A DNA stretch of 60,486 nt, filler included, from a bacterium UBP13_UBA5359 (GTDB lineage Bacteria; UBP13; UBA5359): NCBI GenBank assembly GCA_002410925.1. It is 4 parts of 4 records of this genome, joined end to end, with 100 filler letters (N's around TTAATTAATTAA, not from the genome) between each part and the next. Parts side by side here need not be neighbours in the genome. Positions count along the whole stretch, not along the records: positions 14,117 to 39,776 come from DHPR01000039.1; 3 more parts are not named here. One strand, 5' to 3'. The stretch's first letter is position 1; each line of letters starts with the position of its first letter. Positions 13,989 to 51,392 of the stretch are shown piece by piece. Position numbers and translations under genes: made by a program. The notes below the pieces were generated by a model that saw only the letters and a program-made list of their open reading frames with translations, was not told the origin of the DNA and made no database searches.

Positions 13989-14016
13989 ACGAAAGCTGCA
14001 TCACGGAAAGCGAGAT

Positions 14017-14116
14017 NNNNNNNNNNNNNNNNNNNNNNNNNNNNNNNNNNNNNNNNNNNNTTAATTAATTAANNNNNNNNNNNNNNNNNNNNNNNNNNNN
14101 NNNNNNNNNNNNNNNN
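14017..14116. other. Artificial contig-join linker
   Basis: N run with central TTAATTAATTAA (stops in all frames). Confidence 0.95.
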
Positions 14117-14118
14117 TG

Positions 14119-15120
14119 GTGGCCATGCTAAAAGGGGCGGGGAGCGGTGAAAATGTAACATTGCGAGCGGATATGGATGCTCTTCCGCTACAGGAGATGA
14201 ATGACCTGCCTTATCGTTCCGCCAGGGAAGGCGCTATGCATGCCTGCGGCCACGATGGGCATACCGCTTTACTGTTGGGAACGGCTCTGGTTCTTAGCCG
14301 CCTTAGGCATACTTTTAACGGCTCGGTACGTTTTGTCTTTCAGCCGGGAGAGGAGATGGTGGCCGCCGGCAGGGACTTGGTGTCTCGGGGCATTCTGCGT
14401 GATCCGGAGCCCAAAGCCGTCTTCTCTTTGCATGCCTTGAGCGGTATTCCGATGGGAAGTATCGCTTCACGACCGGGCGTTATCATGGCTGCAGCCGATT
14501 TTTTCAAGATAGTTATTCACGGAAAGGGTGCGCATGGGTCCATGCCGGAAACCGCTATCGACCCTCTGCTTACAGGAGCACGCGTAGTTGAAGCGTTGCA
14601 AGCAATAGCTTCCCGCGACGTAAATCCTTCGGATGCGGTAGTGATGAGCGTATGCCGTTTCAGCGGCGGCACTAACGGCAATATTATACCGGATAGCGTG
14701 GAGCTGGAAGGTACTACTCGTTATCTGAATGAAGAGATGGGGCGCCGGATTCCTATACACATGGAGCGGATAATCAAGGATGTGTGCGATTCCATGAAGG
14801 CATCTTATGAATTCACCTACAATATGCCGTACATACCTACCGTCAACGACCCCGAGGTAGTGGAGCTGGGCGCCGAAGTAGCAAGGGAACTTTTGGGAAC
14901 CGGCGCATGGACGGAAATAGAAACACCTTCCATGGGTGGAGAGGATTTTTCGTATTATATCAAGGATTATCCCGGAGCCCTTTTCAGGCTTGGCATGGGC
15001 GAAGATTATCCCGGTTTACATAATCCCTATTTCGATTTTAATGACAAAGCCTTGCGTAACGGCATTCTTTTTATGTCTGCTGTTACGCTTAAAGCTCTCT
15101 CTTCAGCGCCCCTTCTGTAA
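14119..15120 (+). CDS. M20 family amidohydrolase, 5'-truncated by gap
   Basis: [33 protein letters not shown]. Confidence 0.92.
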
Positions 15121-31499: not shown

Positions 31500-31847
31500 G
31501 GGGGCGACAGGTATCGACGGGAAGTGATGGGGTCGGAGTAGCGAGTCGAGGTTCCATAAGCTCGTTAAACTGTGGGAAAACTATAAACGCCAACGATAAT
31601 TTGGCTCTGGCCGCTTAATATAAGCGCCTGTCCTTCCGGCTACGTCGATCGGGCCGAGCGGGGCATCAACTAAGATCGACTACCCAAAGGCCCATTCCTG
31701 TAAGCCCGAGGGGAATTTTACAGGATAGCTGTAGTTCTATCCCGCCTGCGGGAGCGGACAAGGCGAAACTCAAAGCGCAGGATACACTCGTAGAAGCTCC
31801 GATGACAGCCTTTTCGGACAGGGGTTCGAATCCCCTCGCCTCCACCA
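31500..31847 (+). ncRNA. ssrA: tmRNA; tag peptide (A)ANDNLALAA coded at 31589-31618
   Basis: GGGGGCG acceptor with G3.U pair, GGTTCGAATCCCCTCGCCTCCACCA 3' end, tag frame ending LAA-TAA. Confidence 0.96.
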
Positions 31848-31897: not shown

Positions 31898-32138
31898 GGC
31901 TTTAAGATGGCCATTTTGTATAAATTTTATCCTTAAAGTTATAAAAATGAAGAATTGTTTTTCAATTCAAATTTATAACCTAAATTACCGTAGGTTTAAG
32001 CTGCAGTTATGGATATAGGGGACGTACGCGCGTTGTCTCACGAAAGAATGACACCGAAATGGTAATCGTTGTACCTTGATTAATTTGACTAAGTGAATTA
32101 TTATAGGGCAGCAAAGCAAGTGCTAAGGAGCAGTAACA

Positions 32139-32493
32139 ATGCCCAGGCAGGCCAGACTGGATGCACCAGGAATGCTTCACCATGTAATGGTGAGAGGCAT
32201 CGAGCAGGGCAAGTAAAAAGCATACCCGAACTATACAGGATTTGATAAAGAGAAGACAAGAAATAGAGATAGAAATAGAGAATACTTGCGAGCAGGCAGG
32301 AATAACTATCTTCGAACCGAGAGCCGGCAGCAGGCGAAGGCCGGTATCCAGGGTCAGAAGGGAATTGGTCTACAGGCTGGCAGGTGGTTACGGCATGCCG
32401 CTGCCGATGCCGAAAGCGGGACGTGAATTGGGCGTTTCCGTTTATATGGATCGAGCTTGGATACGCTCTTTTCTTTCTGATTTCACCTCCTGA
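32139..32493 (+). pseudogene. Internally deleted RAYT/Y1 (IS200-like) transposase
   Basis: MPRQARLDAPGMLHHVMVRGIEQG N-terminus joined to a C-terminal HTH remnant (GSRRRPVSRVRRELVY..RELGVS); catalytic core absent. Confidence 0.8.
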
Positions 32494-32629
32494 AGTCTTT
32501 CAACTACAAGGATAGTGATTAATTCTGGTGCCTGCAATGGCTTTTGCATTTGTGGGGATTTTATCGTTGCAAAAGTGGGGAATTCTCTTTGTAACTTTGT
32601 CCCTTTTTATTTTGCACTAAACACCCTAT

Positions 32630-32812
32630 TATGCAAATGCTTCGTAGCTTGTTTGCCTTTCTAACATGGAGAACCTGAATGCAGTATTCATTGCAGACGG
32701 AATGCCTCAGTCGGAACGCCTTAAAAAATTGAACATAATTGCAATCAGTCAGATGAAACTGTCGACGGACGATCACAGAATAATAGCTCTAGATGAAAAA
32801 AGTCAGGATTAA
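32630..32812 (+). pseudogene. C-terminal remnant of a KilA-N domain-containing protein
   Basis: YANAS*LVCLSNMENLNAVFIADGMPQSERLKKLNIIAISQMK resembles the conserved tail of that family (recognised from memory); internal TAG. Confidence 0.6.
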
Positions 32813-32830
32813 ACGAAAAAGCACGAGGAG

Positions 32831-32933
32831 AAAAGCATAGCAACCGTAAAACAAAATGTTGTGCGGCTGCTATTTTGGCTCTAATACTACAAATTAAATA
32901 TTTCAATCCACAGGGCGTTTCCCTTAAAGCGAT
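32831..32933 (-). ncRNA. Putative crRNA-like regulatory RNA: solitary type I-C repeat, promoter-matching spacer and terminator hairpin
   Basis: Minus strand ATCGCTTTAAGGGAAACGCCCTGTGGATTGAAAT then ATTTAATTTGTAGTATT (identical to 32976-32992, preceded by TTC). Confidence 0.75.
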
Positions 32934-32960
32934 AATAACATAAAAGGCTCCGTCGAGCAA
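32932..32960 (-). promoter_or_regulatory. Putative promoter for the crRNA-like RNA
   Basis: Minus strand TTGCTC-17 bp-TATTAT with TG extension. Confidence 0.5.
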
Positions 32961-32990
32961 GAAGGCAATAAATTCATTTAATTTGTAGTA

Positions 32991-33019
32991 TTGACAAATG
33001 GGAAAGAAGATCATATAGT
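32991..33019 (+). promoter_or_regulatory. cas operon sigma70 promoter
   Basis: TTGACA-17 bp-TATAGT; AAAGGAG RBS at 33063-33069. Confidence 0.75.
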
Positions 33020-33076: not shown

Positions 33077-33682
33077 GTGGTCGAAAAAGTCTATCCTATC
33101 TCTTTTGAAATTGCCGGTCAGGCTGCCATGTTTACAAGGCCTGATACAGGCTCCTCCCCGGTATCGTATCCCGCGCCTACCAAATCCGCATTGAAAAGCA
33201 TGTTCGAGTGTGTTGTTATGTCCAAGGAAGCCTATTTTGAGCCTCAAAAGATTGAGATTTGCTCTCCGATCGTATTCCATAAGTATTCCACCAATTATGG
33301 CGGTCCTTTGCGAAAAAATGGAACAGGGAATTTTCAGCTTTTTGCGACGGTTTTGGAGAATGTCTGCTACAAAGTATACGGAATCATCAAGGCATATCAA
33401 GCGCCTCACAGTGATAATAACCCACAGCACAAGCTTCAAGAAGTATTCCTTCGGCGGATAGAATCAGGACAGTTTCATACGACCGTTTTCCTTGGCTGGA
33501 AGGAGTTTACCCCTTCTTATTTTGGCCCATTGCGGAAGAATACCTCGGTTGATTCCTCCATCAATCTCATAATCCCTTCCATGCTTTCAACAATGTATAG
33601 TCGCCCTACGGAAGGCAGCCTATCACCGATTTTTATACAGAACGTGGAAATCTGCAAGGGGGTGATGTTCTATGCTCAATGA
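33077..33682 (+). CDS. cas5: CRISPR-associated Cas5 (type I-C-like)
   Basis: IAGQAAMFTRPD..VSYPAPTKSA N-terminus; RR..GQ..FLGWKEF C-terminus. Confidence 0.9.
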   Translation: MVEKVYPISFEIAGQAAMFTRPDTGSSPVSYPAPTKSALKSMFECVVMSKEAYFEPQKIEICSPIVFHKYSTNYGGPLRKNGTGNFQLFATVLENVCYKVYGIIKAYQAPHSDNNPQHKLQEVFLRRIESGQFHTTVFLGWKEFTPSYFGPLRKNTSVDSSINLIIPSMLSTMYSRPTEGSLSPIFIQNVEICKGVMFYAQ

Positions 33683-35822
33683 ACTTTATGAGCTCAGTAG
33701 ATCACTGGAACGTCACGGCCTCTTACAATCCACCACCCATCCCGATGTCGGCAATGTCGGCAAGGGATATTGCCTTCTGGTTGAACTTGATGATAACGGA
33801 ACGCCTCGGGGCCTTCGAATTCTGCAAAAGAAACAGACTGCCACGCTTTGGAAGCACAGCAAGGGAAATCATAACAGCTTCCCCGCGATTCGCACGCAAA
33901 AACCTCTACTGTCGGCTAGTGAGAGCAAAAAAATTGGCGATGACGCATGGGAAAAAGCAAAGCTATCCGAGAAGCTGATGCTGCTGTCCAAGCTGGATTA
34001 TTCTTCTATCAATCCAGAATGCACCGATGTTAAAATTTCAGAGTGGTCGGCAAAACAATTGGAACCGGTTTTGGCTTCGGAGCAGCCGGAGTTGGCCGCG
34101 CTGAAGCAACTGATTTCTGTGTTCCCTCGGGAAGAAAAGCAGTCTATTTTTATTCAGAATCTTACGCAGCTTCTCCGGCAGGAAATTCTGCGATGCGGGC
34201 AGGAGGATTTGCTTGACTTGATCAAAATACTGCTGATCGGCACTTACGAATCAAAAAACGGAAAATATATCGCCGGCTGCATGACTTATTATGATATGTA
34301 TGAAACCAGGAAGTACGAAAATCTGGTACTTTCATCTGAAACGCAGCGTGCTCTGATCCAACTTCTCAATAGCAAGCACGTCGAAGAAGGTTCCGAGCAA
34401 CAAGCAGCCACTATCATCTCCCCCTTTTCGGGTACTAAAGCTGTGGGAGTCGGAGATAAGTATCCAAACCCCAATATCCCTCTGCTGGGCCTCACTTACC
34501 TGTACTCCAAGAAATCCGATACTCCATGCCTTACCCGCTATACTATGACCGGTACGAAGGCTTTTCAGGCCGGAACAAATGAAATCCGTGCCATCAACGA
34601 CGCCCTTGCGTTTCTGACGGACGATTCCAGAAAAGGCAGGTCATGGCAAGCTATGAGCGATAGTAATCGCGAAAAACCGAACCTGCTGCTGGCCTATCTG
34701 CCGGAAGACCCGCAAAACAATGCTTATCTGGCCAAAATCCTTGGCGACCCATCCGATTCTGATGATCCGGAAGAATATCGGGAAAGGGCAGAGGTTGTTT
34801 ATGAAGTGCTGTGCAAACAGGTGCTTGGAAGCCTTGAGGACGTTTTGCGCAAGAATCCAAATACAAAAGTCAATCTGATCCTTTTGGAAACGCTGGATGC
34901 GGGAAGAAAGCAGGTTGTGTATGAAACCTTCTTTACAGCAGAGCGACTTCGCGAAAACCTGCTCACATGGAAGGCCGCGTCTCAAAACACTCCGCCCATA
35001 GAGATAAGAGTCCGAGATAAAAAAGGGAACATTCTTATAAAGCCGATTTGCCCCACACCCAGCAAAATCTGCCAGCTGTTTAAAATTAACTATATCCAAT
35101 CCGGCTCTGGAAAGCCAATGAAGCAAAGCGACGCCTCGCTTCACGAGATATATCGTCTCTATATGCCGGATTTGCAGACGGATCGTTCCCAACTGGTAGA
35201 GCGGTTTTTTCAGCTGACCGTACAAAAGAGTCGTTGGCTGCTGGGAGATATGGCATATCAACTGATTGTAGATTATGTACTGCCACCCACAAAGCAATCC
35301 CGAACACAGGCAAGGCAGGCCGCCATGTTTGCGTCATTGCTTTCTATTTTGCTTTATTTGACAGGAATCAGAAAGGAGAATTATATGTTGGATGTACCTT
35401 TTAACGTAGGGCAGTTTTTGAAACTGGCAGACATGCTACACAAGGAGTACTGTGTTCAGGTCAGAAACAGCGGGGATAAACAGGCTTCACTCCCAGCGCA
35501 ACTTATAGGAAACGAAATGCTGGCAATTATTTCAGAGAATCCCGTGGAGGGACTTAACCGCCTGTGTGACAGGATGAAGATCTATCTTGCATGGGCAGAG
35601 AGCGCCATCGGTGAAAATGCCGGACTGGCAAAATGGATCCTCGCCCGTTTTGAGGAAGTCAGCATGAAAATTGTGGCTGCGAAAAGTGAACTTCCAGAGC
35701 AGTTCAGCCCCGCTCAGCAGGTCCAGGTGTTTTTGGGATATCTAGCCGTTATCCCATACAAAAAGAAGGAGAAGAACTCCTTAAATAAACCGAATATGAA
35801 GGAGAAGAACAGCAATGAGTGA
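33672..35822 (+). CDS. cas8c: Divergent Cas8c-like large subunit
   Basis: Position between cas5 and cas7; C-terminal PFNVGQFL..QQVQVFLGY helical domain typical of Cas8c/Cas11. Confidence 0.7.
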   Translation: MLNELYELSRSLERHGLLQSTTHPDVGNVGKGYCLLVELDDNGTPRGLRILQKKQTATLWKHSKGNHNSFPAIRTQKPLLSASESKKIGDDAWEKAKLSEKLMLLSKLDYSSINPECTDVKISEWSAKQLEPVLASEQPELAALKQLISVFPREEKQSIFIQNLTQLLRQEILRCGQEDLLDLIKILLIGTYESKNGKYIAGCMTYYDMYETRKYENLVLSSETQRALIQLLNSKHVEEGSEQQAATIISPFSGTKAVGVGDKYPNPNIPLLGLTYLYSKKSDTPCLTRYTMTGTKAFQAGTNEIRAINDALAFLTDDSRKGRSWQAMSDSNREKPNLLLAYLPEDPQNNAYLAKILGDPSDSDDPEEYRERAEVVYEVLCKQVLGSLEDVLRKNPNTKVNLILLETLDAGRKQVVYETFFTAERLRENLLTWKAASQNTPPIEIRVRDKKGNILIKPICPTPSKICQLFKINYIQSGSGKPMKQSDASLHEIYRLYMPDLQTDRSQLVERFFQLTVQKSRWLLGDMAYQLIVDYVLPPTKQSRTQARQAAMFASLLSILLYLTGIRKENYMLDVPFNVGQFLKLADMLHKEYCVQVRNSGDKQASLPAQLIGNEMLAIISENPVEGLNRLCDRMKIYLAWAESAIGENAGLAKWILARFEEVSMKIVAAKSELPEQFSPAQQVQVFLGYLAVIPYKKKEKNSLNKPNMKEKNSNE
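35385..35822 (+). CDS. cas11: Putative internally initiated Cas11 small subunit (145 aa)
   Basis: AAAGGAG 6 nt upstream of an in-frame ATG at the start of the C-terminal domain. Confidence 0.65.
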   Translation: MLDVPFNVGQFLKLADMLHKEYCVQVRNSGDKQASLPAQLIGNEMLAIISENPVEGLNRLCDRMKIYLAWAESAIGENAGLAKWILARFEEVSMKIVAAKSELPEQFSPAQQVQVFLGYLAVIPYKKKEKNSLNKPNMKEKNSNE

Positions 35823-36690
35823 AATCATCAACAGAGGGACAGGCCTGCTTTTAATTGATGTGACCAATTCAAACCCCAACGGGGATCCCGACCGCGAAAA
35901 CGATCCCCGAACCAGGCAAGACGGACGGGGAGAGATTTCTCCGGTCTCTTTTAAGAGGAAGCTGCGCGATCTGGTGGAAGCCAAGGATTCGCCTCTTTGG
36001 AAGGAATTGGCGGAAGAGCTGAATTTGCCGGAAGAAGGCTTCGGTATATTTGAAACCAACACGGTGAAATTTGCCGACTTGATCAATATGAAGACCGAAG
36101 ATTTTCTCAGCCAGTATTGGGACGCTCGAGTGTTTGGAGCTACAGTGCTAGAAAAAAAAGATGATGACAGTAAAAACAAGCACATTGCTTCCGGCGTAGT
36201 TCAGTTTGGATTAGGCGTTTCTGTCGATCCTGTTAAAATTGAACGTCTTTCAACTACTAAAGTCATAAACGAAGGGGAAAACAAAAGCAAAAAAATGGGA
36301 CCACTCGCATACCGAGTTATCTCCTATGGCTTGTATGCTATGCCGTTTTTTATCAATGCAACGGCGGCGCAAAAAACTCGTTGCACGAAAAAAGATATTG
36401 AACTGCTTCTGCGGCTGATCCCCCATGCGTACAAAGAGACAGCCTCATATGTTCGTCCGCAGGTGGATATCCGATACGCATTCTATGTGGAGCATAACCG
36501 CGCTCGTGGTACTTATAACGATTTTCGCATCATCGAGGCGCTTACCCCCGTTCGAATAGCGGGTGGAACCGGCCCGGCTACATCCTGGAAAGAGTATGAT
36601 GAAGCGGCGTTTCAACAAAGTATCGCACAGCTCAATGAAAAGCTGGACGGAAAAACCGCCCCCGTGGCGGATCTGACGGAAACTTTATGA
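35815..36690 (+). CDS. cas7: CRISPR-associated Cas7 (Csd2-like)
   Basis: NSNPNGDPD..PR, SFKRKLRD, WDARVFGAT, GVVQFG. Confidence 0.92.
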   Translation: MSEIINRGTGLLLIDVTNSNPNGDPDRENDPRTRQDGRGEISPVSFKRKLRDLVEAKDSPLWKELAEELNLPEEGFGIFETNTVKFADLINMKTEDFLSQYWDARVFGATVLEKKDDDSKNKHIASGVVQFGLGVSVDPVKIERLSTTKVINEGENKSKKMGPLAYRVISYGLYAMPFFINATAAQKTRCTKKDIELLLRLIPHAYKETASYVRPQVDIRYAFYVEHNRARGTYNDFRIIEALTPVRIAGGTGPATSWKEYDEAAFQQSIAQLNEKLDGKTAPVADLTETL

Positions 36691-38840
36691 TTCCGCTTGC
36701 ACACAGTGCCCGAGGCGGCAGGCCGGCACAATCCTACCGTGCCCATGTACGCGGGGTAATCAAAAAGGTGCACGAAAATTTGGAGGCAATAGCTCCGTAT
36801 ATCGCCAAAGAGAAGGCTGAGCTTTATGGAGAGATTCTGAATCCGGCGGCAGTGCTTCATGATGTGGGCAAGCTGGCAGGGGAAAATCAAGATGTCCTTT
36901 ACGGAAAGAAACAAGCGAAAAGGCTTCCAATTGAGCATCGGGACGCAGGTGCAAAATATTTGTTGAGAGACCAGCCGGAATGTCCGGAGGCTACTCTGGT
37001 ATACTCGCATCACCGCCCGGGACTGCCGAATATGTCTGCGCAAAAAATTGCAGATTCGCCTTTCCGTTTTTTGACCGCCATGTCCGACACTGACAAAAAC
37101 CTCTGCAAATATCTGCAAATTCATGCTGAAGAGATTGGCAAGCTTCCGCCACCCACTGATAAAAAAGCGGCAAAGCTTTCAGCACTAGAATACCGCATTC
37201 TGCTGAGCTGTCTGGTGGACGCCGACTATTCGGATACAGCCGGTGAACAGCCGGCAGGTGCGGAAGCGCGCTGGGAAGAACGGGGGCTTCGATTGGACAG
37301 GTATGTTCAGAACTTGCAAGATCACGCAGAGCAAGAGAGCGAACGCAGCCGTCTGCGTAACTTTCTCTATTACAACTGCAAAGGCACCGCAACAGACGCC
37401 GTGATGGAATACTGCGACAGTCCTGTAGGTACAGGGAAAACCACGGCAGTCATGGCGCATATGCTAAAGGCTGCGCAGGCGCATCATCTGCGGCACATTT
37501 TCGTGGTATTGCCATACACCAATATCATCTCCCAGACGGTGGAGGTACTCAGGAAAGCTGTTGTGCTGGACGATGAGGATCCTGAAGAAGTTATGGCCGA
37601 GCACCATCATCAGGCGGATTTTGAGAATCTCGAGTATCGGCGTCTGGCGGCGACCTGGACAGCTCCCATTATTGTCACCACGGCGGTTCAATTCTTTGAG
37701 ACGTTGGCCGGAAATCTTCCGGCTAAGCTGCGCAAGCTGCACCAGCTTCCAGGCAGCGGCGTCATTTTTGATGAGTACCACGCCGCTTTGCCTGCCGGTC
37801 TGATGCTGCCCGCATGGAAATGGATGACCGAACTCGCATCTCGATGGACATGCCGTATCTGTATGTGTTCCGCCACAACGGTAAAATTCTGGGAGAATCC
37901 TGCCTTTCAAAAACAGGCTCGGCTGTGTGCCTTACCCTTGCTGCCTCCAGGGATTTTGGAAAACCTGAACGTCTTTGAGCAATCAAGGATTGACCTGAAT
38001 GCATGGAGTGGCAGTATTCCGCATTTTCATGGAGCGGCGGAACTTGTGACATACCTGAATAATTATCATGGTTCTAAAATCGTCGTGCTGAACACCGTCC
38101 AATCCGCCGCATCTTTTGCCCAATTTTTACGTCAGCAGGGATGCGATGTATTGCATCTTTCCTCTGCCCTCACACCGGAGGATAAAGAATGCACGATGGC
38201 CGAGATTGAGCGAAGGCTGTGTTCCCAATCGGAATCCCTCAAAGATTGGACGCTGGTGGCCACAAGCTGCGTAGAATGCGGTATGGATTTTTCATTCCGC
38301 TACGGCTTTTGCGAGCTGTGTTCCCTGCAAAGTTACATTCAGTTGAGCGGGCGTATTCGTAGAAACAGCGAGAAAGAATATGGGGATGCAGTGCTGGTTG
38401 CATTTACGATTGCAGAGGACAATTTCACTGCTAATCCAAGCTTCAAAGATTCAAAACATGTATTTGAGAAAATGATTTCTTCCGGAAGGCTTCCTGCCCT
38501 ATCCATCACCGAAGCGATCACGGAAGCATTTCAAGAGGAATGCAAGATGCGCGGGGTATTGTTGGAAGAGATCTGCAAAGCCGATCGCCTACACGAATTT
38601 GAAATCGTTGCCCAAAAGTTTCGTGTGATTGACGAAGAAACGATGACCGTTGTGGCCGGAAAAACGCTTATCGCAAAAATTCAAGCAGGTGAACAGGTTT
38701 CCTCCAAAGAGTTTCAAAGAGGCAGCGTCAACCTTCGCAAGAGTGTTTTGACCCGACTTGGGCTGTCCGACAGCGAATTACCTATGCTTTCAGATTTGCA
38801 GTATGACGCCTTTCTCGGATATATGAAGGATCTGATATAA
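36687..38840 (+). CDS. cas3: Cas3 HD nuclease-SF2 helicase
   Basis: LAHS, LHDVGK, SCLVDAD, PVGTGKT, DEYH, SAT, QLSGRIRR. Confidence 0.92.
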   Translation: MIPLAHSARGGRPAQSYRAHVRGVIKKVHENLEAIAPYIAKEKAELYGEILNPAAVLHDVGKLAGENQDVLYGKKQAKRLPIEHRDAGAKYLLRDQPECPEATLVYSHHRPGLPNMSAQKIADSPFRFLTAMSDTDKNLCKYLQIHAEEIGKLPPPTDKKAAKLSALEYRILLSCLVDADYSDTAGEQPAGAEARWEERGLRLDRYVQNLQDHAEQESERSRLRNFLYYNCKGTATDAVMEYCDSPVGTGKTTAVMAHMLKAAQAHHLRHIFVVLPYTNIISQTVEVLRKAVVLDDEDPEEVMAEHHHQADFENLEYRRLAATWTAPIIVTTAVQFFETLAGNLPAKLRKLHQLPGSGVIFDEYHAALPAGLMLPAWKWMTELASRWTCRICMCSATTVKFWENPAFQKQARLCALPLLPPGILENLNVFEQSRIDLNAWSGSIPHFHGAAELVTYLNNYHGSKIVVLNTVQSAASFAQFLRQQGCDVLHLSSALTPEDKECTMAEIERRLCSQSESLKDWTLVATSCVECGMDFSFRYGFCELCSLQSYIQLSGRIRRNSEKEYGDAVLVAFTIAEDNFTANPSFKDSKHVFEKMISSGRLPALSITEAITEAFQEECKMRGVLLEEICKADRLHEFEIVAQKFRVIDEETMTVVAGKTLIAKIQAGEQVSSKEFQRGSVNLRKSVLTRLGLSDSELPMLSDLQYDAFLGYMKDLI

Positions 38841-39170
38841 AAATCTAATTAAATCGATGAGAGGTATCTGATTTATGAAAAGTACTTAATCTTTGGCTGT
38901 CAAATCTGACTTATCAGTTTGACCATGAGCGTTATATGGGCTGAGTGTTGGCATCTATATTCATCTAACTTTCCAAATCAAATCCATCATTGACAAAAAA
39001 TATTTTCACCAGACGGCTTTATTTGGCCTTGAAATGCCTGAAAAAGTGATCTTCGAAAATCTTCGGGAATCGCGGTTACAATTTTTGGGACTATCGTCGT
39101 TAATTTTTGTCTCATGCCGATGCTTGAAACTGGAAGTATTTTTTTATAACCATTTGGTTTTTTGCGCTTG

Positions 39171-39591
39171 TTCGATCTGACTTTAATCGCCAGAGCATCC
39201 ACTAGCACGAAAGGGTACTCCTGCCCGCTAAGATCTCTTCCGTTCCAGACTTCCACCAGCGGGTCCAGCTTCTTGTATAGATGAGATACCGTTGATTTGG
39301 GGAACTCTGTTCCGCATAACTCCTCGACAATGGTATTGACCTTACAGATGGACACTTCGCTGACCGCCCTCTCTATCAAAGACAGTACCAGAGCTTGTTC
39401 GCTTCTTTGTATTCTCTTGAACAGCTCCGAAGAGAAGCTACCGTTTCTCAACTCTGGAATACTCAACTTCCGGCTGCGATAGCCGTTACGATACCCTGGT
39501 CTGTTTTTGTCCTTTCATAAGGCGTAGCCCCGACGTATTCTTGTGCCGAGCCGGCAATATCTGGTTTAGCACATTTTTCAACAGCCTGGCC
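39171..39591 (-). pseudogene. IS256-family transposase remnant (frameshifted, truncated)
   Basis: ARLLKNVLNQIL, IPELRNGSFSSELF, RSEQALV, VEELCGTEFPKSTVS, YPFVLVDA. Confidence 0.82.
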
Positions 39592-39671
39592 GAACGCGTA
39601 GGGGACATACGCCTATTGCAATCATGGTGGCATAGTGGTATAAAGCCTGGCCGAACGCGTAGGGGACATAC
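39583..39671 (+). repeat. Two exact 28-bp direct repeats separated by 33 bp
   Basis: AGCCTGGCCGAACGCGTAGGGGACATAC at 39583-39610 and 39644-39671. Confidence 0.9.
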
Positions 39672-39677
39672 ATTAAC

Positions 39678-39776
39678 TAATTTGATAAGTGAATTATTAT
39701 AGCGCAACAAAGCAAGTGCTAAGGAGCAGTAACAGTGCCCAGGCAGGCCAGGCTGGATGCACCAGGGATGCTTCAT
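39678..39776 (+). mobile_element. Second copy of RAYT transposase 5' region, cut by contig end
   Basis: Near-identical to 32081-32179; GTG CCC AGG CAG GCC AGG CTG GAT GCA CCA. Confidence 0.8.
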
Positions 39777-39876
39777 NNNNNNNNNNNNNNNNNNNNNNNN
39801 NNNNNNNNNNNNNNNNNNNNTTAATTAATTAANNNNNNNNNNNNNNNNNNNNNNNNNNNNNNNNNNNNNNNNNNNN
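39777..39876. other. Artificial contig-join linker
   Basis: N run with TTAATTAATTAA. Confidence 0.95.
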
Positions 39877-39903
39877 CCGGCTCAGGCCGAGGAGGAAGAG
39901 TGA

Positions 39904-50701: not shown

Positions 50702-50919
50702 TAGAGTGTACCCGAAAGAGTGGAGACTTCAAGAGGCAAAGTGATAAAATAAGCCAAAGGGGGCCTTCAGGGCATGAGAAAAGGACAGAAACAAAATAAG
50801 TATACAACGGAGTTCAAGGAGAGGGCGGCTCTCGCTATACCCCAACGGAGCATGAAGAGTTAAAGGCTCTACTTAAAGAGAACCATCGATTGCGGGAAGA
50901 ACGTGACATCTTAAAAAAA
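50702..50919 (+). mobile_element. IS3-family left end and deleted orfA
   Basis: KYTTEFKERA then frameshift to ENHRLREERDILKK ending in an A run at the contig end. Confidence 0.75.
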
Positions 50920-51019
50920 NNNNNNNNNNNNNNNNNNNNNNNNNNNNNNNNNNNNNNNNNNNNTTAATTAATTAANNNNNNNNNNNNNNNNNNNNNNNNN
51001 NNNNNNNNNNNNNNNNNNN
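50920..51019. other. Artificial contig-join linker
   Basis: N run with TTAATTAATTAA. Confidence 0.95.
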
Positions 51020-51020
51020 T

Positions 51021-51392
51021 TGTAAAATGGAGCACATCCTCTCTGAAGAGGCGGCAGATCGCATTTGCACTCTTCTTGGGCATCCGCAGGAGTGCCCGCA
51101 CGGATTATCTATTCCTGCGGGCAACTGTTGCCGCCAGCCTAAGGAAACGCTGAATAGTTTGATCACCACTGTTGACCGGCTCCACATAGGGGAAGAAGCC
51201 AGGATTGCCTATATTCAGACCGGAAGTGATGAGCGCCTTCATAAGCTGGTCTCCTTCGGCCTTCATCCGGGTGCTGTAATCCGTCTGCATCAGCGTTTTC
51301 CTGCCGTAGTGATCAGGACGGAAGAGACGCAACTGGCTATTGAGGAGGAGATTGCTCGTGAAATTCATGTTCGGAGGAAGGCGGAAGCATAA
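51021..51392 (+). CDS. DtxR/MntR-family regulator C-terminus with FeoA domain (5'-truncated)
   Basis: CKMEHILS..LGHPQECPHG.IP, FeoA-like LVSFGLHPG. Confidence 0.85.
   Translation, partial: CKMEHILSEEAADRICTLLGHPQECPHGLSIPAGNCCRQPKETLNSLITTVDRLHIGEEARIAYIQTGSDERLHKLVSFGLHPGAVIRLHQRFPAVVIRTEETQLAIEEEIAREIHVRRKAEA

What the first reader, a model, noticed from the sequence alone, without database searches (positions are those of the whole stretch)
32831..33019. Solitary type I-C repeat encoding a guide aimed at the cas operon's own -35 element (probable Cascade autorepression RNA)
Seen in sequence: the minus strand at 32933-32900 reads ATCGCTTTAAGGGAAACGCCCTGTGGATTGAAAT. It has the I-C repeat 3' end GTGGATTGAAAT, a GTCGC-like 5' end and an AGGG/CCCT hairpin. 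The next 17 nt (32899-32883, ATTTAATTTGTAGTATT) are identical to plus-strand 32976-32992. That site is directly preceded by TTC (32973-32975) and overlaps the TTGACA of a TTGACA-17-TATAGT promoter in front of cas5. The match stops at position 18. The unit has its own candidate promoter (TTGCTC-17-TATTAT) and a downstream hairpin with a T-rich tail (about 32872-32831). Established: TTC is the type I-C PAM, partial pairing lets Cascade bind without licensing Cas3, and CreA/CreR-type RNAs repress promoters this way. Inference: Cascade represses its own transcription here. It is the only I-C-type guide visible on this contig.
Basis: partly seen in the sequence, partly recalled or inferred. Interest (0 to 1): 0.92.

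Follow-up and report, generated by a model that had tools for sequence, protein, structure and literature searches.

The report
Self-repressing guide RNA of CRISPR operon
A lone CRISPR repeat next to a set of CRISPR defence genes very probably makes a short guide RNA that steers the defence complex onto its own promoter to hold its production down, a kind of switch already described in other bacteria.

Summary
On the minus strand a repeat-like unit ending in GTGGATTGAAAT (32933-32900) is followed by 17 nt (32899-32883). These 17 nt are identical to plus-strand 32976-32992. That site is preceded by TTC and runs into the TTGACA of a TTGACA-17-TATAGT promoter in front of cas5.

Comparative evidence supports the interpretation.
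- Of 81 non-redundant related cas5-cas8-cas7-cas3 loci, 15 (the window included) carry a repeat-plus-guide whose first 17 nt match a TTC- or TTT-flanked site upstream of their own cas5, with at most 3 mismatches. Guide sequences differ between lineages.
- 15 of 22 mismatches fall at positions 6 and 12, which Cascade does not pair.
- Pairing ends at position 15-17 in all 13 distinct guide-target pairs.
- The guide can lie on either strand relative to its target, so this is not a hairpin.

The element is a CreR-type regulator built as a type I-C "solitary repeat unit": one degenerate repeat, a short guide and a terminator hairpin. This design has been shown experimentally in Neisseria I-C systems.

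No RNA or repression data exist here. Two public assemblies carry a 1-nt deletion in the target. The operon is a divergent I-C module without adaptation genes.

Verdict: real, and a new member of a known kind.

The parts
32955..32960 (-). -35-like box TTGCTC of the guide-RNA gene
   Evidence: Read. Matches 3 of 6 to TTGACA. TTGCT/TTGAT is kept in L028, L002, L003, L029 and L030. Its role as a promoter is inferred.
32932..32940 (-). Extended -10 box TGTTATTAT of the guide-RNA gene (TATTAT at 32937-32932). Predicted transcript start near 32925.
   Evidence: The box is conserved in five homologous loci. The start site is inferred from spacing, not measured.
32900..32933 (-). Degenerate repeat (psiR). 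Stem AGGG 32924-32921, loop 32920-32916, stem CCCT 32915-32912. The 11-nt 5' handle UGGAUUGAAAU is 32910-32900.
   Evidence: The last 12 nt are identical to the 3' end of the array repeat next to the homologous operon in L014 and of the canonical repeat in L028. The stem is only 4 bp; 100 of 1000 shuffles do as well.
32883..32899 (-). Guide (psiS), 17 nt identical to the target strand
32874..32882 (-). Non-matching tail of the spacer-like segment. There are 26 nt in all between handle and hairpin.
32827..32873 (-). Terminator-like hairpin (32873-32837) plus GCUUUUCUCC
   Evidence: centroid structure. A hairpin follows the guide at this place in 13 of the other 13 loci folded; L029/L030 have a different sequence at the homologous place.
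32973..32975 (+). TTC motif (type I-C PAM) directly 5' of the target
   Evidence: TTC in 12 and TTT in 3 of the 15 loci with a target.
32976..32992 (+). Target site, 17 of 17 identical to the guide
32991..33019 (+). cas operon promoter TTGACA-17-TATAGT. The -35 overlaps the last 2 nt of the target and lies inside the 34-nt Cascade footprint.
   Evidence: (11 of 12).
33077..33682 (+). cas5 (201 aa)
   Evidence: Pfam Cas_Cas5d 30.8 bits. TIGR01876 43.9 bits, below the cutoff of 85. The best solved relatives are I-C Cas5 chains.
33672..35822 (+). Divergent cas8c (716 aa)
   Evidence: No Pfam, NCBIfam or PDB sequence hit. The predicted fold matches I-C Cas8c chains (8g9t_K, E 1.5e-9). The C-terminus matches Cas11c chains.
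35815..36690 (+). cas7 (291 aa)
   Evidence: Pfam Cas_Cas7 181.8 bits. Best NCBIfam is I-C Csd2 at 112.6 bits, below the cutoff of 182.
36687..38840 (+). cas3 (717 aa), HD nuclease fused to helicase

Best explanation
The element is a small gene for a crRNA-like regulator: a CreR-type RNA with the 'solitary repeat unit' build of type I-C systems.

Proposed steps. Apart from the sequence geometry in step 4, each step is inferred, not shown.
1. The gene is transcribed leftwards from an extended -10 promoter (32940-32932). Transcription starts at about 32925 and ends at the hairpin 32873-32837.
2. Cas5 cuts after the short repeat hairpin. This leaves an 11-nt handle (UGGAUUGAAAU) in front of the guide.
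3. Cas5, Cas8c and Cas7 assemble on this RNA.
4. The complex recognises TTC at 32973-32975 and pairs guide positions 1-17 with the promoter DNA. It then covers the -35 box, and probably the spacer region, of the cas5-cas8-cas7-cas3 promoter, so RNA polymerase is kept off.
5. Pairing stops at position 17, so the R-loop stays incomplete and Cas3 is not licensed to cut. The chromosome is therefore safe.

The outcome is negative feedback. More Cascade means less cas transcription. Loss, titration or inhibition of Cascade releases the promoter.
For: Shown by sequence.
- Repeat end, guide, TTC, target and promoter geometry are as stated.
- The match is far beyond chance.

Shown by comparison.
- All 27 genome loci and the window keep the order cas5-cas8-cas7-cas3 as far as each locus extends; several are cut short by contig ends.
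- Arrays next to such operons have I-C repeats ending GTGGATTGAAAC or GTGGATTGAAAT.
- Of 81 non-redundant loci with at least 250 nt upstream, 22 have GGATTGAAAN within 600 nt. 15 have a TTC/TTT-flanked own target with at most 3 of 17 mismatches.
- Cross-locus controls reach that level in 24 of 2720 pairs. 23 of those 24 lie inside the two homologous subfamilies.
- 15 of 22 mismatches lie at positions 6 or 12 (binomial P 8.6e-10).
- Pairing ends at position 15-17 in all 13 distinct pairs.
- The target is on the opposite strand to the guide in 10 loci and on the same strand in 5.
- Within the subfamily WIN, L028, L002, L003, L029 and L030, five changes are present on both guide and target.
- The 34-nt footprint overlaps a promoter scoring at least 9 of 12 in 9 of 14 loci.
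- A hairpin follows the guide in 14 of 14 loci.
- A short stem ends 0-2 nt before the handle in 13 of 14 loci, with different stem sequences.

From papers (passages read).
- In type I-C, solitary repeat units give RNAs of 48-50 nt with an 11-nt handle and a 3' end in a hairpin loop. They pair over 16 bp with a mismatch at position 6 next to TTC, and repress about 21-fold (10.1101/2024.12.27.630466).
- CreR autorepression was shown for I-B, I-E and V-A (10.1101/2023.03.10.532045).
Against: - No RNA data: no RNA run is listed. The transcript, its ends and its processing are inferred.
- Public assemblies vary. Contigs of runs X3 and X5 have a 1-nt deletion at 32982 in the target while the guide is unchanged, which leaves 8 matching positions before the register shifts. 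X3, X4 and X5 have G>A at 32993, which turns TTGACA into TTAACA. The circuit is therefore not fixed even among near-identical strains.
- Only 15 of 81 related loci have the element. L001, whose Cas5 is 87% identical, lacks it.
- L021 has a solitary repeat with no convincing target.
- The repeat stem in the window is 4 bp, and 100 of 1000 shuffles do as well. The whole-RNA fold has z = -1.58.
- The RNA's -35 box is weak. The T tract after the hairpin has only four U in a row. Neither promoter nor terminator was listed by the consensus scan.
- The nuclease residues of this divergent Cas5 were not checked.
Confidence: 0.85

Rival explanations
1. The RNA is real, but it is loaded mainly by a second, canonical type I-C Cascade encoded elsewhere in the genome. 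That Cascade keeps this divergent module silent. The divergent module would then be a reserve effector, released when the main one is inhibited.
For: - 5 of 5 genomes that hold such a divergent module also have one cas1 elsewhere. They also have 39 to 176 copies of TGGATTGAAAY, the listed ones spaced like arrays.
- In the 2 genomes annotated (G003, G004; a third fetched region, L110 of G001, was not annotated), that cas1 sits in a full canonical I-C locus above NCBIfam cutoffs.
- The handle of the regulator is the same as that of those arrays.
Against: - No genome is held for the window, so a canonical I-C system in this organism is not shown.
- Loading of one RNA by two diverged Cascades is untested.
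- Self-repression alone explains all that is seen.
Confidence: 0.15
2. A decaying leftover of a CRISPR array, such as a terminal repeat with a self-derived spacer, that no longer does anything.
For: - The repeat is degenerate at its 5' half.
- The closest metagenome relative, L028, has two repeats where the window has one.
- The target carries a deletion in two public assemblies.
Against: - The same build recurs in about eight unrelated guide lineages, each with its own matching target, a TTC/TTT motif and a stop at position 15-17.
- Mismatches avoid the pairing positions.
- The element's own promoter and hairpin are conserved.
Confidence: 0.04
3. A CreA-type antitoxin. On this reading the main target is a toxin gene next to the cas promoter, which makes the cas genes addictive.
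For: CreA also represses cas8 in Haloarcula, and target sites lie between divergent promoters (passage). Here too the target lies between two divergent promoters.
Against: - The only genes driven from the two promoters are the guide RNA itself and cas5. No ORF of 25 aa or more with a family match lies between them.
- The guide has no other target in the window.
- A very small toxin RNA was not searched for specifically.
Confidence: 0.04
4. The 17-nt inverted repeat is a protein operator pair or an RNA/DNA hairpin unrelated to CRISPR.
For: In the window the two copies are inverted and 76 nt apart.
Against: - In L011, L013, L018 and L048/L051 the guide and target are direct repeats, not inverted.
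- One copy always follows the repeat handle. The other always follows TTC or TTT.
Confidence: 0.02

Closest known systems
Type I-C solitary repeat units (SRUs) giving crRNA-like RNAs in Neisseria. They regulate Nezha, Gabija and 'CRISIS' defence genes (bioRxiv 10.1101/2024.12.27.630466; passages read).
   Same: - One degenerate repeat with a short hairpin, an 11-nt 5' handle and a short guide, followed by a 3' hairpin.
- TTC motif.
- About 16-17 bp of pairing, with mismatches at positions 6 and 12.
- Target next to a -35 box.
   Different: - There the unit lies between cargo genes and cas5c, and it represses the cargo promoter in canonical cas3-first loci.
- Here it lies divergent to cas5 and aims at the cas operon's own promoter.
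- Here the module is divergent, has cas3 last and has no adaptation genes.
CreR, Cas-regulating RNAs (bioRxiv 10.1101/2023.03.10.532045; passages read)
   Same: - A degenerate mini-CRISPR upstream of the effector genes.
- Partial match to a PAM-flanked site at the cas promoter.
- Autorepression logic.
   Different: - CreR was shown experimentally for I-B, I-E and V-A.
- For I-C only creA-like elements found by manual search are mentioned, with reference to a supplementary figure that I could not see.
- Many CreR genes have two repeat-like sequences. This one has a single repeat.
Mini-arrays and repeat-like regulatory elements of Shmakov et al. (bioRxiv 10.1101/2023.03.03.530964; passages read)
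   Same: - Standalone repeats conserved in related loci.
- Spacers partly complementary to effector-gene promoters.
- Presence varies among related systems.
   Different: - They were reported as common in I-B, I-E and I-F1.
- The term 'I-C' has no occurrence in the main text searched. The supplementary tables were not seen.
tracr-L autorepression of cas9 in Streptococcus pyogenes (as described in the introduction of 10.1101/2023.03.03.530964)
   Same: A natural guide with short complementarity (11 bp there) represses the promoter of its own effector.
   Different: That is a class 2 single-protein effector with a tracrRNA-derived guide. There is no Cascade and no Cas3.
Viral Cracr RNAs (bioRxiv 10.1101/2024.10.29.618823; passages read)
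   Same: The same kind of guide aimed at cas promoters, including type I-C loci.
   Different: - Those are carried by phages as anti-CRISPRs.
- This unit is chromosomal and conserved next to cas5.
- No copy was found in the phage collection or in viral contigs.

Membership tests
CreR / crRNA-like regulator (solitary repeat unit) | A repeat-like sequence whose 3' handle nucleotides equal those of the cognate CRISPR repeat | tested here: met
   The last 12 nt, GTGGATTGAAAT, equal the repeat end in the L014 array and in the L028 canonical repeat. No array of the window's own organism is available.
CreR / crRNA-like regulator (solitary repeat unit) | A hairpin directly 5' of the handle, forming the Cas5c processing site | tested here: inconclusive
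   A 4-bp stem AGGG/CCCT ends 1 nt before the handle, but 100 of 1000 shuffles do as well. A stem is present in 13 of 14 loci, with varying sequence.
CreR / crRNA-like regulator (solitary repeat unit) | A guide partly complementary (PAM-proximal part only) to a PAM-flanked site at the promoter of the effector genes | tested here: met
   17 of 17 match, followed by no match. TTC is present. The site overlaps the -35 of an 11-of-12 promoter.
CreR / crRNA-like regulator (solitary repeat unit) | Conservation with co-variation of guide and target in related loci | tested here: met
   15 of 81 loci carry it. There are five two-sided changes in the window's subfamily. Cross-locus controls are given.
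CreR / crRNA-like regulator (solitary repeat unit) | The RNA is made and processed in a Cas-dependent way | not testable with these tools
   No RNA run is listed.
CreR / crRNA-like regulator (solitary repeat unit) | Cas-dependent repression of the target promoter without cleavage | not testable with these tools
   Needs reporter and cleavage assays.
Type I-C CRISPR-Cas | Cas5c-type Cas5 and no Cas6 | tested here: inconclusive
   TIGR01876 scores 43.9 bits against a cutoff of 85. The best solved relatives are I-C Cas5 chains. No cas6 lies in the operon. Catalytic residues were not checked.
Type I-C CRISPR-Cas | Cas8c large subunit with an embedded Cas11c | tested here: met
   Met at fold level only. 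The model (pLDDT 73) matches I-C Cas8c chains at E 1.5e-9 to 3.6e-4. Its C-terminus matches Cas11c chains. There is no sequence-family hit.
Type I-C CRISPR-Cas | Csd2-type Cas7 | tested here: inconclusive
   The best NCBIfam is TIGR02589 at 112.6 bits against a cutoff of 182. The best solved relative is 7kha_B at 7.8e-20.
Type I-C CRISPR-Cas | Locus build cas3-cas5-cas8c-cas7-cas4-cas1-cas2-array (recalled) | tested here: not met
   The order is cas5-cas8-cas7-cas3 in the window and, as far as each locus extends, in all 27 genome loci. No adaptation genes lie at the locus. Arrays directly follow cas3 in L005, L014 and L022 only.
Type I-C CRISPR-Cas | TTC PAM | tested here: met
   Inferred from the regulatory targets: TTC in 12 and TTT in 3 of 15 loci.
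CreTA (Cascade-repressed toxin-antitoxin) | A toxin gene whose promoter is the guide's target | tested here: not met
   The target lies in the cas5 promoter. No candidate gene lies between the two divergent promoters. A tiny toxin RNA is not excluded.

The most novel reading that the evidence does not exclude
The cas5-cas8c-cas7-cas3 operon is a distinct 'satellite' type I-C effector with no adaptation genes of its own. It borrows crRNAs from the arrays of a co-resident canonical I-C system, because the two share the same 11-nt handle. Its solitary-repeat RNA can then be loaded by either Cascade. The main system would hold the satellite silent and release it when anti-CRISPRs inhibit the main system. 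The satellite would be a built-in reserve effector with diverged protein surfaces. In addition, the strict three-segment pairing rule seen in every lineage (positions 1-5, 7-11 and 13-17) would mark the natural limit between binding and Cas3 licensing.
Probability: 0.15. Interest if true: 0.7.

Novelty: new member of a known kind. Interest (0 to 1): 0.35.

Why it matters
Self-repression by a guide RNA explains how a costly and potentially self-harming defence complex is kept at a low level yet can be released quickly, for example when anti-CRISPR proteins block it.

This case adds a clean, comparatively well-supported example in a divergent branch of type I-C. It also gives a natural data set of about eight independent guide-target pairs. 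These show the same rule each time: a TTC or TTT motif, pairing over three five-base segments, free positions 6 and 12, and a stop at 17. That rule is directly useful for designing type I-C transcriptional repressors that do not recruit Cas3.

The mechanism itself is already in print, so the gain is in breadth and not in principle.

Tried and rejected
- Whole-genome search of the window's own assembly: no genome is held. Arrays or a canonical I-C system in this organism therefore could not be sought.
- Expression: the look-up of sequencing runs listed 20 DNA holders from 12 studies and no RNA holder. This says nothing on expression. The laid runs were contigs only, so no RNA ends could be seen.
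- Rfam: only a tmRNA and a tRNA passed gathering scores in the window. No family matched the element.
- First pass for targets requiring an exact prefix of 9 nt or more: it missed L002, L003, L011 and L018. It was replaced by a mismatch-tolerant search.
- A mistyped handle pattern gave a nearly empty table. It was corrected.
- Doubtful cases left out of the count of 15: L085/L086/L095 (GCC flank), L096 (GTC flank) and L020 (AAA flank, palindromic guide). Handles other than GGATTGAAAN were not counted, so 15 of 81 is a lower bound.
- The 89-aa minus-strand ORF 32745-33014 across the element has no Pfam or NCBIfam hit. The homologous regions differ by indels that are not multiples of three. It was rejected as a gene.
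- Viral mimic of the guide: none in the phage records by blastn. No exact handle-plus-guide match was found in viral contigs.
- Sequence searches for Cas8 in the PDB, both single sequence and profile, gave nothing meaningful. Only the fold comparison did.
- Earlier notes of this scan: nothing by place or by sequence.

Full report
**1. The observation.**
The region was read on both strands.
- The minus strand at 32933-32900 is ATCGCTTTAAGGGAAACGCCCTGTGGATTGAAAT.
- The following 17 nt (32899-32883) are identical to plus-strand 32976-32992. The repeat finder reports the pair as a perfect 17-nt inverted repeat 76 nt apart.
- TTC precedes the plus-strand copy (32973-32975).
- That copy ends inside TTGACA (32991-32996). 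Together with TATAGT (33014-33019) at 17-nt spacing, this is the only strong promoter-like site in front of cas5 (11 of 12).
- The 12-mer GTGGATTGAAAT occurs once in the window.
- TTC plus the 17-mer has no other near match in the window and none in 100 shuffles.
- 0 of 2000 shuffled guides match a TTC-flanked site in the upstream region as well.

**2. The surroundings.**
Downstream lie four genes:
- cas5 (33077-33682);
- a 716-aa gene without any sequence family (33672-35822);
- cas7 (35815-36690);
- a fused HD-helicase cas3 (36687-38840).

Cas5 and Cas7 are nearest to type I-C models but score below NCBI's I-C cutoffs (43.9 against 85; 112.6 against 182). Their best solved relatives are subunits of I-C Cascades.

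I modelled the 716-aa protein on an alignment of 20 homologues (pLDDT 73). The model matches I-C Cas8c chains (8g9t_K at E 1.5e-9, also 8dfs_I, 8dex_I and 7kha_I). Its C-terminus matches Cas11c chains. The operon is thus a divergent type I-C effector module with cas3 last and no cas4, cas1 or cas2.

The window is not one molecule. N runs with TTAATTAATTAA linkers at 14009-14128, 39769-39888, 50912-51031 and from 52287 join separate contigs. The cas contig ends about 930 nt after cas3, behind an IS256-family transposase fragment. 'No array on this contig' therefore says little about the organism. No genome is held for it.

**3. Related loci.**
With a Cas5 alignment I fetched 27 loci from genomes and 80 from metagenomes.
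- All 27 genome loci show the same order cas5-cas8-cas7-cas3 as far as each locus extends.
- Where an array directly follows cas3 (L005, L014, L022), L005 and L014 have typical I-C repeats ending GTGGATTGAAAC or GTGGATTGAAAT.

A mismatch-tolerant search of the 600 nt upstream of each cas5 gave the following.
- 81 non-redundant loci have at least 250 nt upstream.
- 22 of them have GGATTGAAAN.
- 15 have a guide whose first 17 nt match a TTC-flanked (12 loci) or TTT-flanked (3 loci) site of the same upstream region with at most 3 mismatches. These are WIN, L028, L002, L003, L029, L030, L011, L013, L018, L046, L048, L051, L061, L062 and L063.
- The same guides laid on other loci reach this level in 24 of 2720 pairs. 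23 of those 24 lie within the two groups of homologous loci.

The guides fall into about eight unrelated sequences, each matching only its own locus.

**4. Signature of Cascade.**
- Among the 13 distinct guide-target pairs, 15 of 22 mismatches lie at positions 6 or 12 (P 8.6e-10 against a uniform spread). These are the positions that type I complexes flip out and do not pair, as the papers read also state.
- Pairing stops at position 17 in 11 of the 13 pairs, at 16 in L048/L051 and at 15 in L018. That amounts to three five-base segments.
- Guide and target lie on opposite strands in 10 loci and on the same strand in 5. A hairpin or palindromic operator therefore cannot explain them.
- In the window's own subfamily (WIN, L028, L002, L003, L029/L030), positions 3, 5, 12 and 13 have changed on both guide and target, five changes in all. 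One-sided changes are at position 6 (twice), at 7 and at 10.
- The 34-nt footprint downstream of the motif overlaps a promoter scoring at least 9 of 12 in 9 of 14 loci.

**5. Anatomy of the RNA gene.**
Alignments of WIN with L028, L002, L003, L029 and L030 show three conserved features.
- An extended -10 box, TGTTATTAT (32940-32932), with a TTGCT-type -35.
- The repeat.
- The guide, followed by a hairpin. In L029/L030 this hairpin has a different sequence at the same place.

A hairpin follows the guide in 14 of 14 loci, mostly with a clear U tract. In the window it is 32873-32837, followed by GCUUUUCUCC.

The predicted start near 32925 lies at the foot of the 4-bp repeat stem. The 5' half of the 'repeat', including the 'GTCGC-like' end, is thus promoter, not RNA.

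A stem ending 0-2 nt before the 11-nt handle is present in 13 of 14 loci with varying sequence. Alone it is weak evidence: in the window, 100 of 1000 shuffles do as well.

L028, the closest relative (Cas5 95% identical), has a two-repeat form: a degenerate repeat, a 34-nt spacer, a canonical repeat GTCGCACCCCTCGCGGGTGTGTGGATTGAAAT, then the same guide. The window lacks exactly this 67-nt unit.

**6. Comparison with what is known.**
- CreR RNAs were shown to autorepress I-B, I-E and V-A effectors. For I-C only creA-like elements are mentioned, with a supplementary figure I could not see.
- Shmakov et al. describe such mini-arrays mainly for I-B, I-E and I-F1.
- A later preprint shows by small-RNA sequencing and reporters that type I-C 'solitary repeat units' in Neisseria give RNAs of 48-50 nt. 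These have an 11-nt handle and a 3' end in a hairpin loop. They pair over 16 bp with a mismatch at position 6 next to TTC, beside a -35 box, and they repress neighbouring defence genes.

The element here has that build. The handle (11 nt), the 26 nt up to the hairpin and the stem predict an RNA of about 50 nt. It differs in what it targets: the promoter of the effector operon itself. That is the CreR function.

Earlier notes of this scan describe like elements between cas3 and cas5 of canonical I-C loci in other genomes. I did not test them.

**7. Points against, and open.**
- No RNA evidence exists.
- In contigs of four public runs laid on the region, the guide is unchanged. X3 and X5 have a 1-nt deletion at 32982 in the target, which leaves 8 matching positions. 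X3, X4 and X5 have G>A at 32993. That change weakens the -35 to TTAACA and makes position 18 match. X10 does not cover the site.
- The same contigs carry the IS256 fragment behind cas3, so the lack of an adjacent array is not an assembly accident of the window.
- Most related loci (66 of 81) lack the element. Shmakov et al. report the same patchiness for other subtypes.

**8. A wider lead.**
- Five of five genomes with such a divergent module have a single cas1 elsewhere and dozens of TGGATTGAAAY copies, the listed ones spaced like arrays.
- In the two genomes annotated (a third fetched region, L110 of G001, was not annotated), that cas1 belongs to a complete canonical I-C locus.

The divergent module may therefore be a second effector that shares crRNAs, and possibly its repressor RNA, with the canonical system. 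This is untested, and it cannot be examined for the window's organism.

**9. Verdict.**
The finding is real. It is a new member of a known kind, namely CreR-type autorepression by a type I-C solitary repeat unit, found in a divergent I-C branch without adaptation genes. Interest is moderate.

Noticed in passing
window 14009-14128, 39769-39888, 50912-51031, from 52287: Runs of N with a TTAATTAATTAA linker. The window is a chain of separate contigs, so neighbourhood across these points means nothing.
   Followed up: partly
window 31500-31847 (+): A tmRNA gene (Rfam 180.5 bits) lies about 1.2 kb upstream of the cas module. The module sits between it and a repeated element, as genomic islands often do.
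   Followed up: no
window 32090-32179 and 39686-39775: A 90-nt direct repeat (94% identical) flanks the cas module. It holds the start of a short ORF (MPRQARLDAPGMLHH...) that I recall as the N-terminus of IS200/RayT-like transposases; this was not tested. Depth in public contigs is much higher over 32000-32776 than over the cas genes, so the sequence is multi-copy.
   Followed up: partly
window 38987-39466 (-): A fragment of an IS256-family transposase (NF033543, 81 bits, below cutoff) sits directly behind cas3, where relatives have a CRISPR array. It is also present in contigs of other samples.
   Followed up: partly
window 39583-39610 and 39644-39671: A perfect 28-nt direct repeat. Contigs of three public runs skip 61 nt here, that is, they carry one copy only.
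   Followed up: no
L028:2600-3003: The closest relative has a two-repeat mini-array (degenerate repeat, 34-nt partly palindromic spacer, canonical repeat, then the same regulatory guide). The window lacks this 67-nt unit. This looks like loss or gain of one repeat-spacer unit by recombination between repeats.
   Followed up: partly
L046, 600 nt upstream of cas5: Here the regulatory guide is the last, cas-proximal unit of a six-repeat array that runs towards cas5. Two neighbouring spacers of that array are identical.
   Followed up: no
L062 and L063, upstream of cas5: Guide and target form the two outer arms around the terminator hairpin, so a read-through transcript could fold the guide away.
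   Followed up: no
G003 (L108) and G004 (L109): Genomes with the divergent cas5-cas8-cas7-cas3 module also hold a complete canonical type I-C locus and large arrays with the same 11-nt handle. The divergent module may be a second effector using the same crRNAs.
   Followed up: partly
window 32982 and 32993: Natural variants in public assemblies: a 1-nt deletion in the target (runs X3, X5) and G>A in the -35 box (X3, X4, X5). The guide is unchanged in X3 and X4.
   Followed up: partly
L021, about 300 nt upstream of cas5: A solitary repeat ending GTGGATTGAAAT on the cas5 strand has no convincing target within 1 kb. It may aim elsewhere.
   Followed up: no
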